From assembly GCF_030028105.1 (NCBI RefSeq), contig NC_092381.1, positions 34,761,550 through 34,825,549 on the forward strand: DNA of 64,000 nucleotides, written 5' to 3'. This document shows, piece after piece, positions 14,596 through 17,507 of the stretch. Under the pieces are notes generated by a model that saw nothing but the letters and a program-made list of their open reading frames with translations, was not told the origin of the DNA and ran no database searches. This stretch comes from Mobula birostris. Taxonomy: Eukaryota. Both the position numbers and the translations under genes were made by a program. Each line of letters begins with the position of its first letter. Within the stretch, counting starts at the first letter, position 1.

Positions 14596-14713
14596 CAGCA
14601 GTTGTACTGTGTCCTTCTTGAATATTTGCAACAATTTATAGAAGATTGCAAAAATCAAAGGGTAGGTGTAGCCTCGTAGCCTTTCTTTCCATTCCCATGT
14701 TAAATAACCATAC
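14596..14713 (-). CDS. PIGB: PIGB exon 3
   Basis: [40 protein letters not shown]12-like branch site upstream; GTAAGA donor. Confidence 0.93.
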
Positions 14714-17371
14714 TTGAGAAAGTTAAGAATATCTCTCAAAACAATAATAATCACCACAATGTGAGTTATACAAAATTAATTCGGGGCAGCACAGGCCACT
14801 CAACCCTTCAAGCCTGGACTGCCATTAATAAGGTTTGATTGTTAACACAAATCCACATTCCCATCAGCCCATGTTAACCTTTCACCTCTGTTTTTGAAGG
14901 TAGCTATCTACATTTGATTTAAAATGTTCTAATATTCTGTTTCTCCCTTATCTTTTTTATGAAGATGGTTTCTAAAATTCATGACTCTCAGACAGAAAAT
15001 GTTGTCTCATCTCTCTTAAATGGGTGACCCCTTATTTTCAAGAAGTTTGGTTTTGCAGAAGGGAAATCAAGTTTGACCAACTTAACAGAGAACAGTACAT
15101 TTTTTATGGTTGGTAAGATAGAAATGAGCAGTACACCACAGCAGCCTCAACTTTTCACCATTCCTTTAAATTTCTTTGAAGGCACTGAAATTATGATTAC
15201 TAAATCTGCATGCATTACAAAAGCTAGATATGAAAGACAAAGAGGACGTAATGATTTAGATAGGACAGATGACTAGCAAAGATCTGGCTAAGAACATGTG
15301 AAATGTCCATTTTGACAGGAAAAACAAAGAACGTCATTTCAATAGTGAATGACTGCAGGGCAAAAAGGCAGAGAGGGAACTGGTGCACAATTTACAAAAG
15401 ACTACAATGCACATACAAGGAGTAGTTGGGAGTGCTAACAAGCATTATTTATTACAAGAGGAAATTATGCAAAAGTATGGAGGTTATTTGGGTTTTGGAA
15501 ACACCACATCCTAAGTAGCTAGCAGAGTTTTGAAATCTTTATTCACAGAAGAATGTTAATATTTTGGAGGCAATTTAAAGAATATTTACTGAAAGAAAAT
15601 ATGACCATAAAACATAGGAGCAGAATTCAATCCATCATGACTTATTTATTATCCATCTCGACCTCACTGTCCTGCCTTCTCCCCATAACCTCTGATGCCC
15701 TTAACAATCAAGAACCTATCAACCTCCACTTTAATTATACACAATGACTTGGCCTCCACAGCTGCCTGTGACAATGAACTCAAAATTCACCAGCCTCTGG
15801 CTAAAGAAATTCCTCCTCATTTCTGTTCTGACAGGATGAATTTCTATTCTGACACTGTGCCCTCTGCTCCTAGACTCCCCCACTATAGAAACATCCCGTC
15901 CACATCCACCCTATAATCATCTTAGGAAAGATTGGGCAGTCTAAGCTTCTATCCATTGAGTATGGAAGAGCAAAAGAGAGCCCAAATAAAACCTTTAAGA
16001 TTCTATGGGATTTTGATGGTAACATTTCAGGATTAAAGGACGTCCATTTAGAACAGAGATGCGGAGAAATTACTTTAGTCAGAGGGTGGTAAATCTGTGG
16101 AATTTGTTGCCACTAGTGGCTGTGGAGGCCAAGTTATTGGGTGCATTTAAGGCTGAGATAGATAGGTTCTTGATTGACATGGGGAGAAGGCAGGGGAGTG
16201 GGGATGACTGGAAGAATTGGATCAGCCCATGATTGAATGGTGGGCAGATTCGATGGATCAAATGGCTTACTTCTGCTCCTATATCTTATGGTCTTATGGT
16301 TTAAATGTAGAGAGAAAATAAAGAAAATATTTTCTCTTGTGGGAAACTCCTAGAATTAGGTGGTTACTGAATAAAAATAAATGATTGCTGATTAAGACAG
16401 AGAGAAAAAATAACCTCATCTCTGAGATTCATGAATTTGGAACTACTTTCCTCAGAGGGCTATGGAGAGCCTTTAAGGCAGAGTCTTTACTTGTACTTAC
16501 GGCAGTGACAGATAGATACTTGACAAACAAGAGGGTGAAAAGCTAGTGTAGCTAGGTGTAAACAAGAACTTGAGGTTACTTTCATATCAGTATTCATATT
16601 TTAAATGGCCAGGCATGTTTGAGAAGCCAAATACCCAATTCCCACTTCTAATTTATATGTTTAAATTGACAGAAAGAAACTACATCCAACAAAATAGTGT
16701 GCATGGTGTAGTTTTGAATCTTATAAAACAAGCATGGATGGACAAAACACAGCCTAACCAGACCAAAAAATTGGAATATTGTATTAATTTCTGGTCACAT
16801 CATTATAGAAAGGATGAGAAAGTTTTAGAAAGGGCACAAAGGAGATTTACCAGGATGCTGCTGAGACTACAGGACATGTCTTACAACGATAGATTGAGCA
16901 AACTAGAGCTTTTCTCTTTGGAGCAAGAGGATGAGAAGTAACTTGATAGAAGTGATGAGAGGCATACTGTAGACTGAGTGGATAACCAGAGAGTTCGTCC
17001 CAGGGCAGAAATGGCTAACACAAGGGGGCATAATTTTAGATGATTAGAGGAAACTGCAGGGAGATTGGCATAAGTTCTTTACATAGTGGTGGGTACATGG
17101 AACACTCTGCCAGGGGTAGTTGTAGAGGCAAGTGTATTTGCGGCATTTAAGAAATTCTCAGATACGCACATGGATAATAGAAAAATGGAGGGCTATGTAG
17201 GAGGGAGGGGTCAAGAGTAGGTTAAAAGGTCAACATATCATGGGCTGAAGGGCCTGTACTGTGCTGAAACGTTATACCAAATATCTTGTATCCGAAAGAA
17301 CAGTGAGAACAAAACATAAAAAGTTACTTTTTTTACATTATGTATTTATAGTTTGTAAATACAAAGGATAT
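14714..17371 (-). other. U12-type (minor spliceosome) intron, PIGB intron 2, apparent AT-AA termini
   Basis: 5' end ATATCCTTTG (17371-17362); branch site TTCTTAAC (14729-14722) about 10 nt from the 3' end; frame is kept only if the intron ends ...CTCAA at 14714. Confidence 0.85.
15600..17270. mobile_element. Cluster of CR1 3' fragments in both orientations
   Basis: LEYCINFWS...LERAQRRFTRML-type remnants and ATCTTATGGTCTTATGG tails. Confidence 0.75.
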
Positions 17372-17507
17372 TTGAAGACCATATTGTGAGCAACTTCGAG
17401 TGACTGCCAATACTCATCAGCAACAAAGCTAGTCTGGACCAGAAGGCAGTTCACAGATCTCAAAGCTATAGACAACATCATTAAATAAGTGTTTGGACCC
17501 AATAATC
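17372..17507 (-). CDS. PIGB: PIGB exon 2
   Basis: [45 protein letters not shown] matches the [12 protein letters not shown] motif; CAG acceptor; U12-type ATATCCTTT donor. Confidence 0.93.

What the first reader, a model, noticed from the sequence alone, without database searches (positions are those of the whole stretch)
14713..17372. PIGB intron 2 is a U12 intron needing non-canonical AT-AA ends, with a frameshifting AG one base away
Seen: donor TTCAA|ATATCCTTTG; branch site TTCTTAAC; 3' end ...TTTCTCAA|G TAT GGT. In-frame joining ([11 protein letters not shown]) requires splicing after AA at 14714. Using the adjacent AG (ending 14713) removes one base and shifts the frame. Established: U12 3' sites are chosen largely by distance from the branch point, and rare AT-AA and AT-AG ends exist. 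Inference: competition between AA and AG could send part of the PIGB mRNA to nonsense-mediated decay and limit GPI-anchor synthesis. Automated annotation is likely to mis-model this junction.
Basis: partly seen in the sequence, partly recalled or inferred. Interest (0 to 1): 0.7.

Follow-up and report, generated by a model that had tools for sequence, protein, structure and literature searches.

The report
Known AT-AA minor intron in PIGB
This ray's PIGB gene carries a rare minor-class intron that ends in AA, just as the already catalogued human one does, and the neighbouring AG is likely at most a small splicing leak, not a control switch.

Summary
PIGB intron 2 (minus strand, 17371-14714, 2,658 nt) has a U12 donor, a U12 branch site and an AA end, and only the AA join rebuilds the database protein. 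It is not new: the orthologous human PIGB intron is listed as U12 AT-AA with the same donor and branch spacing in the supplements of PMC8280824. AT-AA is the commonest non-canonical minor type in animals. Assembly error is unlikely. Database models are in register in 19 of 19 cartilaginous fishes, this gene included, so mis-annotation is not borne out here. Contigs of a related sample fit the AA join indirectly. The AG join would give a stop at codon 91 and lies at a usable distance, but no AG product was seen and no raw reads were available. Against it: 14 of 14 human AT-AG minor introns end in YAG, whereas this one would be AAG; 2 of 10 human AT-AA rows also have AA|G; and the base after the intron varies between species. 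A regulated NMD switch stays untested and unlikely.

The parts
17372..17507 (-). PIGB exon 2 (136 nt), ends in phase 2 with the first two bases (AA) of Lys87
   Evidence: Pfam Glyco_transf_22 positions 2-37
17362..17371 (-). U12-type 5' splice site ATATCCTTTG
   Evidence: same as the human PIGB donor
14714..17371 (-). PIGB intron 2, U12 A-type, AT-AA ends, 2,658 nt; interior (about 15520-16375 and 16800-17340) holds high-copy repeats
14722..14729 (-). U12 branch site TTCTTAAC; candidate branch adenosines at 14724 and 14723 (positions -11 and -10)
14714..14715 (-). AA acceptor (CAA context) giving the full-length frame
   Evidence: in-register Lys in database proteins; contig overlap arithmetic
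14713..14714 (-). Potential AG acceptor (AAG context), one base downstream; frameshift, stop at codon 91; use not shown
14699..14700 (-). In-frame AC acceptor 15 nt inside exon 3; use would delete YGYLT; matches stingray database isoform P0023
14596..14713 (-). PIGB exon 3 (118 nt), starts with the G of Lys87
   Evidence: Pfam Glyco_transf_22 positions 39-77
20960..21083 (-). PIGB exon 1, coding part
91..8325 (-). PIGB exons 4-7 (8325-8221, 4584-4454, 1644-1504, 142-91), all with GT-AG introns; exons 8-12 lie beyond the window start (L002, L003)

Best explanation
PIGB intron 2 is an old minor-class (U12-type) intron with AT-AA ends, shared with the human gene, and it is likely spliced mainly at the AA to give full-length PIGB. 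Shown: donor, branch motif, AA end, reading frame, human orthologue catalogued as AT-AA. Inferred: U11/U12 recognise the donor and branch site; the 3' end is then picked within a short window after the branch adenosine, and the first pyrimidine-A-N in that window is CAA. The adjacent AAG lacks the pyrimidine at -3 and is likely used rarely; any such product would be cleared by NMD as noise. If this intron limits PIGB output, it likely does so by retention when minor-spliceosome activity falls, as reported for the human intron.
For: Human PIGB intron chr15:55320411-55321272 is AT_AA / AT-AA in three supplementary tables of PMC8280824, with the same donor and 8 nt between branch motif and intron end, as here. 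MIDB lists PIGB as a minor-intron gene in human and mouse. Only the AA join equals P0025. 146 of 160 PIGB-family records, and 19 of 19 cartilaginous-fish species, have a one-residue in-register junction. In run X2 a spliced contig stops at 17372 with 26 unplaced letters and an unspliced contig starts at 14688; 26 plus the 4 shared letters is a 30-letter overlap, which fits the AA join and not the AG or AC joins (assumes 31-letter assembly words). Human A-type rows: 14 of 14 AT-AG end YAG, 10 of 10 AT-AA end YAA, 7 of 8 AT-AT have a pyrimidine at -3 (read by eye). Human retention rises from PSI 0.29 to 0.76 on CENATAC depletion and from 0.20 to 0.60 with ZRSR2 mutation.
Against: No junction reads were counted and the junction letters in X2 were never printed, so the RNA support is one contig pair from one related sample plus database models. 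The AA sits at -10/-11 from the branch adenosines, at or just under the 11-13 nt optimum quoted in PMC3584512, while the AG would sit at -11/-12; human AT-AG rows have spacers of 9-12 nt and the AG here would have 9. PMC1557818 counts more AT-AG (20) than AT-AA (8) and says efficiency follows frequency. U12 3' site choice is described as error-prone. Stingray isoform P0023 and chimpanzee isoform P0124 show that this acceptor is sometimes missed.
Confidence: 0.85

Rival explanations
1. Regulated AA-versus-AG competition: in lineages with G at exon +1 a sizeable, condition-dependent share of PIGB mRNA is spliced at AG and destroyed by NMD, limiting GPI-anchor synthesis.
For: The AG join gives a stop 104 nt before the next junction. 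Its branch distance is within the range of real AT-AG introns. Lys at the junction, which needs a purine at exon +1, is kept in 17 of 19 cartilaginous fishes. Alternative 3' site use is listed for human PIGB (CAT8).
Against: No AG product was seen. AAG context is found in 0 of 14 human U12 AT-AG rows. AT-AG is called disfavoured in PMC3584512. The exon +1 base is T in human and the residue varies (N 81, K 38, S 9, R 6, D 5, H 5, G 2 of 146 in-register records; Mustelus N, chimaera D), so the competing AG is not conserved. Lys can be AAA, so G itself is not shown outside this species and X2. Every AT-AA intron has an A-N pair one base on, and 2 of 10 human AT-AA rows have AA|G.
Confidence: 0.08
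2. The main competitor is the in-frame AC 15 nt downstream, giving a minor PIGB isoform without YGYLT that escapes NMD and is probably inactive.
For: Stingray database isoform P0023 reads VFK-WEWKER, exactly the product of the AC at 14700-14699. A 2026 preprint names PIGB among genes with an annotated AT-AC 3' site (passages only; which AC is meant was not seen).
Against: 1 of 160 records shows it. It lies 25-26 nt from the branch adenosines, beyond the quoted optimum. Not listed among the three models identical to this gene (P0025, P0026, P0030). Activity of the shortened protein is untested.
Confidence: 0.05
3. The AA is an assembly error for AC and the intron is an ordinary AT-AC intron.
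For: AT-AC is the usual A-type end; a fungal-looking contig (L011) has the same-position intron as AT-AC.
Against: The human orthologue is AT-AA. The X2 contig over 14688-15157 has 5 substitutions, all listed elsewhere (14757, 15010, 15046, 15090, 15133), and its start position needs the shared TCAA; the places of its 3 gap letters were not shown.
Confidence: 0.02

Closest known systems
Human PIGB intron 2 (chr15:55320411-55321272, NM_004855.4), U12 AT-AA (PMC8280824 supplements, rows seen; MIDB tables of PMC6717393, rows seen)
   Same: Same gene, position and phase; same donor; AA end preceded by a pyrimidine; 8 nt from branch motif to intron end.
   Different: Human exon 3 starts with T (Asn; the +1 alternative is AT), the ray's with G (Lys; the +1 alternative is AG). 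Human intron 862 nt, ray 2,658 nt. Human has an AC 3 nt upstream of the AA, which would give the extra Asn of chimpanzee isoform P0124; the ray lacks it.
A-type (AT-AN) minor introns, AT-AA subtype (Sheth 2006 PMC1557818, passages and tables; Larue and Roy 2023 PMC10639083, section 30; de Wolf 2021 PMC8280824, passages, section 10, supplements)
   Same: U12 donor, branch site close to the end, AA terminus; AA|G also occurs in human ABHD18 and THOC2 rows.
   Different: Branch spacing is at the short end of the human AT-AA rows (8 nt; range 7-17).
Unproductive splicing coupled to NMD (regulated poison isoforms; general knowledge, recalled)
   Same: The AG join would carry a premature stop more than 50 nt before a junction.
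   Different: No evidence that the isoform is made, is regulated, or that the competing site is conserved.

Membership tests
U12-type (minor) intron | Extended donor RTATCCTTT | tested here: met
   ATATCCTTTG at 17371-17362; consensus as given in PMC1635337
U12-type (minor) intron | TTCCTTRAY-like branch site close to the 3' end, no long pyrimidine tract | tested here: met
   TTCTTAAC at 14729-14722, 8 nt before the end; branch adenosines at -11/-10, slightly short of the 11-13 optimum but equal to human PIGB
U12-type (minor) intron | Conserved position in orthologues | tested here: met
   Human and mouse PIGB; same-position AT-AC intron in L011:810-908; 5 other metagenome hits and L009 have no intron there (6 of 7)
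U12-type (minor) intron | Removal depends on the minor spliceosome | not testable with these tools
   Not testable in the ray; the human orthologue is retained on CENATAC depletion and ZRSR2 mutation
AT-AA subtype | mRNA is joined at the AA | tested here: met
   Indirect: frame, database proteins, contig overlap in X2; junction letters not read directly
Regulated unproductive splicing (AS-NMD switch) | Alternative product carries a stop more than 50 nt before a junction | tested here: met
   Stop at codon 91, 104 nt before the exon 3/4 junction
Regulated unproductive splicing (AS-NMD switch) | The unproductive isoform is made at a measurable, condition-dependent level | not testable with these tools
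   Only assembled contigs were offered, no raw reads; contigs drop rare variants
Regulated unproductive splicing (AS-NMD switch) | The competing site is conserved | tested here: not met
   Human exon +1 is T; junction residue varies across vertebrates and within sharks

The most novel reading that the evidence does not exclude
Vertebrates have kept a deliberately weak AA acceptor with short branch spacing in PIGB for some 450 million years as a valve on GPI-anchor synthesis, and in sharks and rays the G after it opens a one-base AG leak to NMD whose size is set by minor-spliceosome state. The site would be a natural test of whether U12 3' ends are chosen by distance, by the -3 pyrimidine, or by the last base.
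Probability: 0.08. Interest if true: 0.5.

Novelty: already known. Interest (0 to 1): 0.12.

Why it matters
As it stands it adds one point: the AT-AA end and the short branch spacing of the catalogued human PIGB intron also hold in a cartilaginous fish. If a regulated one-base AG leak were shown, it would be a rare case of single-nucleotide 3' site choice controlling an essential GPI enzyme, and a clean natural substrate for U12 3' site rules.

Tried and rejected
RNA search: 13 runs listed, all assembled contigs, none on record as RNA; no raw reads. Four of the 13 were laid: repeats inside the intron swamped the joint table (118 joints not shown), and only X2 showed contigs over the exons; the lack of exon cover in X1, X3 and X4 is no evidence. 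Metagenome motif scan: 7 loci, none vertebrate by their look; 1 of 7 has the intron. PDB search with exon 2: nothing relevant. Three primary papers on U12 3' site choice (PMC1370826, PMC86782, PMC60238) were not held; I cite them only through PMC3584512, PMC1557818 and PMC2831892. PMC8848931 had no readable supplements; bioRxiv supplements were closed, so the PIGB AT-AC site of the 2026 preprint could not be located. Full-text searches for PIGB with AT-AA (0 papers), PIGB with minor spliceosome (1 paper, listing only) and AU-AA with splice site selection (0 papers) found no discussion of this junction; the knowledge sits in supplementary tables. Earlier scan findings: none on this intron. Rejected: a shifted canonical GT-AG reading (no GT-AG among the 5 equivalent placements; the in-frame AG at 14736-14735 lies upstream of the branch site and was not pursued); the ATATCC-like site at 58441 (inside a retroelement-like frame).

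Full report
Observation. On the minus strand, exon 2 of a Glyco_transf_22 gene ends TTCAA at 17372 and is followed by ATATCCTTTG. The 3' end reads TTCTTAAC TTTCTCAA G TAT GGT. Exons 1-7 in the window, joined with the intron ending at AA (14714), give 269 residues identical to the start of P0025, a database GPI mannosyltransferase 3 labelled Mobula birostris. All other introns in the window are GT-AG. Joining at AG gives a stop at codon 91, 104 nt before the next junction; retention gives a stop at codon 98.

Is the AA real? Three lines say yes. First, the human orthologue is listed as AT_AA or AT-AA in three supplementary tables of PMC8280824, with the same donor and the same 8 nt between branch motif and intron end (rows seen). 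Second, in run X2 (a sample about 98% like the window) an unspliced contig covers 14688-15157 with five substitutions, none at the acceptor; the places of its 3 gap letters were not shown. Third, a spliced contig in X2 covers exon 2, stops at 17372 and has 26 unplaced letters. With 31-letter assembly words, two contigs that merge into exon 3 share 30 letters: 26 exon letters plus the TCAA common to exon 2 and the intron end. The AG or AC(+15) joins would leave 30 unplaced letters. This is an inference from coordinates; the letters were not printed, and it rests on one of four runs laid, of 13 listed.

Is it mis-annotated? Of 160 PIGB-family records, 146 have an in-register junction, 6 lack the anchor motif and were not scored, and 8 differ. 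Five of the 8 look like mis-models that read into the intron (P0006, P0016, P0040, P0125, P0151), one has an unexplained insertion (P0132), and two match alternative AC acceptors: stingray P0023 (minus YGYLT, the AC at 14700-14699) and chimpanzee P0124 (one extra Asn, which the AC 3 nt upstream in the human acceptor would give). All 19 cartilaginous-fish species have an in-register model (17 Lys, 1 Asn, 1 Asp). So some pipelines fail here, but not for this gene.

How old is it? MIDB lists PIGB in human and mouse (PMC6717393 supplement rows). A 26% GC metagenome contig, L011, has a 99-nt intron at the same position and phase with ATATCC and AC ends; I read it as fungal from its look, untested. 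Six other hits have no intron there. One sequence cannot fix the ancestral end, but the intron predates vertebrates and the AA end is shared by ray and human.

Would the AG compete? For: its branch distance (-11/-12) fits the 11-13 nt optimum quoted in PMC3584512 better than the AA (-10/-11) (passages); human AT-AG rows have spacers of 9-12 nt and this AG would have 9; PMC1557818 lists 20 AT-AG against 8 AT-AA and links efficiency to frequency (passages and tables); U12 3' choice is called error-prone. Against: all 14 human U12 AT-AG rows end YAG and all 10 AT-AA rows end YAA, 7 of 8 AT-AT rows have a pyrimidine at -3 (read by eye, rows not independent, some are predicted transcripts), so CAA fits and AAG does not; PMC3584512 calls AT-AG disfavoured; PMC10639083 finds AT-AA the commonest non-canonical end in animals (section 30); any AT-AA intron has an A-N pair one base on, and 2 of 10 human rows have AA|G; the exon +1 base is T in human, and purine-requiring residues come and go among hamsters, gerbils, bony fishes and sharks. 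Lys does not tell G from A. No data here measure the AG product, so the idea is neither shown nor excluded.

Mechanism. Shown: signals, frame and orthology. Inferred: the minor spliceosome removes the intron and picks the first pyrimidine-A-N in its window, CAA; slips to AG or AC are minor. The documented lever on this intron is retention: in the human tables PSI rises from 0.29 to 0.76 after 48 h CENATAC depletion and from 0.20 to 0.60 with ZRSR2 mutation, with no alternative event called in those rows. MIDB does list alternative 5' and 3' site events for human PIGB. Whether these methods would catch a one-base shift is not known to me.

Literature seen: PMC8280824 (passages, section 10, supplement rows), PMC6717393 (passages, supplement rows), PMC1557818, PMC1635337, PMC3584512, PMC2831892, PMC1874599 (passages), PMC10639083 (passages, section 30), bioRxiv 10.64898/2026.10.16.759739 (passages; it names PIGB among AT-AC 3' sites, which differs from the AT-AA listing and may refer to an alternative acceptor; its supplements were closed). 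No paper on the ray intron or on an AG leak was found in searches. The figure of about 450 million years is recalled.

Verdict. A real, correctly read, already catalogued AT-AA minor intron. Novelty: already known. Interest 0.12. The regulatory reading has about 8% probability and needs raw junction reads.

Noticed in passing
window 14700-14699 (minus): In-frame AC acceptor inside exon 3 whose use deletes YGYLT; a stingray database isoform (P0023) has exactly this product.
   Followed up: partly
P0124 (chimpanzee PIGB isoform): Extra Asn at the junction, matching an AC 3 nt upstream of the human AA; fits the CAT8 event listed in MIDB for human PIGB.
   Followed up: partly
L011:810-908: Same-position AT-AC minor intron (99 nt) in an AT-rich, probably fungal PIGB/GPI10 homologue; its best branch-like motif is about 20 nt from the end.
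   Followed up: partly
L002, about 3875-3855 (minus), PIGB intron 9 donor: The GT donor GTAGGT overlaps a U12-like GTATCCTCT four bases further on, which would be out of frame; no U12 branch site was evident at the acceptor.
   Followed up: no
L004:1326-1288 (minus): The alternative last exon of isoform P0030 lies just before a GC-rich stretch that looks like the start of the next gene on the same strand, so that model may reflect read-through.
   Followed up: no
window 61732-63210 (minus): Intronless 492-codon frame with class II tRNA synthetase and anticodon-binding domains; resembles mitochondrial prolyl-tRNA synthetase PARS2 (name recalled).
   Followed up: partly
window 53673-54101 (minus) and 32630-32959 (plus): Exon-like frames resembling the start of TTC4 and the end of TMEM205 (names recalled; no Pfam match). 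This neighbourhood differs from what I recall of human PIGB.
   Followed up: no
window 11710-11862: 80-nt exact tandem duplication inside a retroelement in PIGB intron 3.
   Followed up: no
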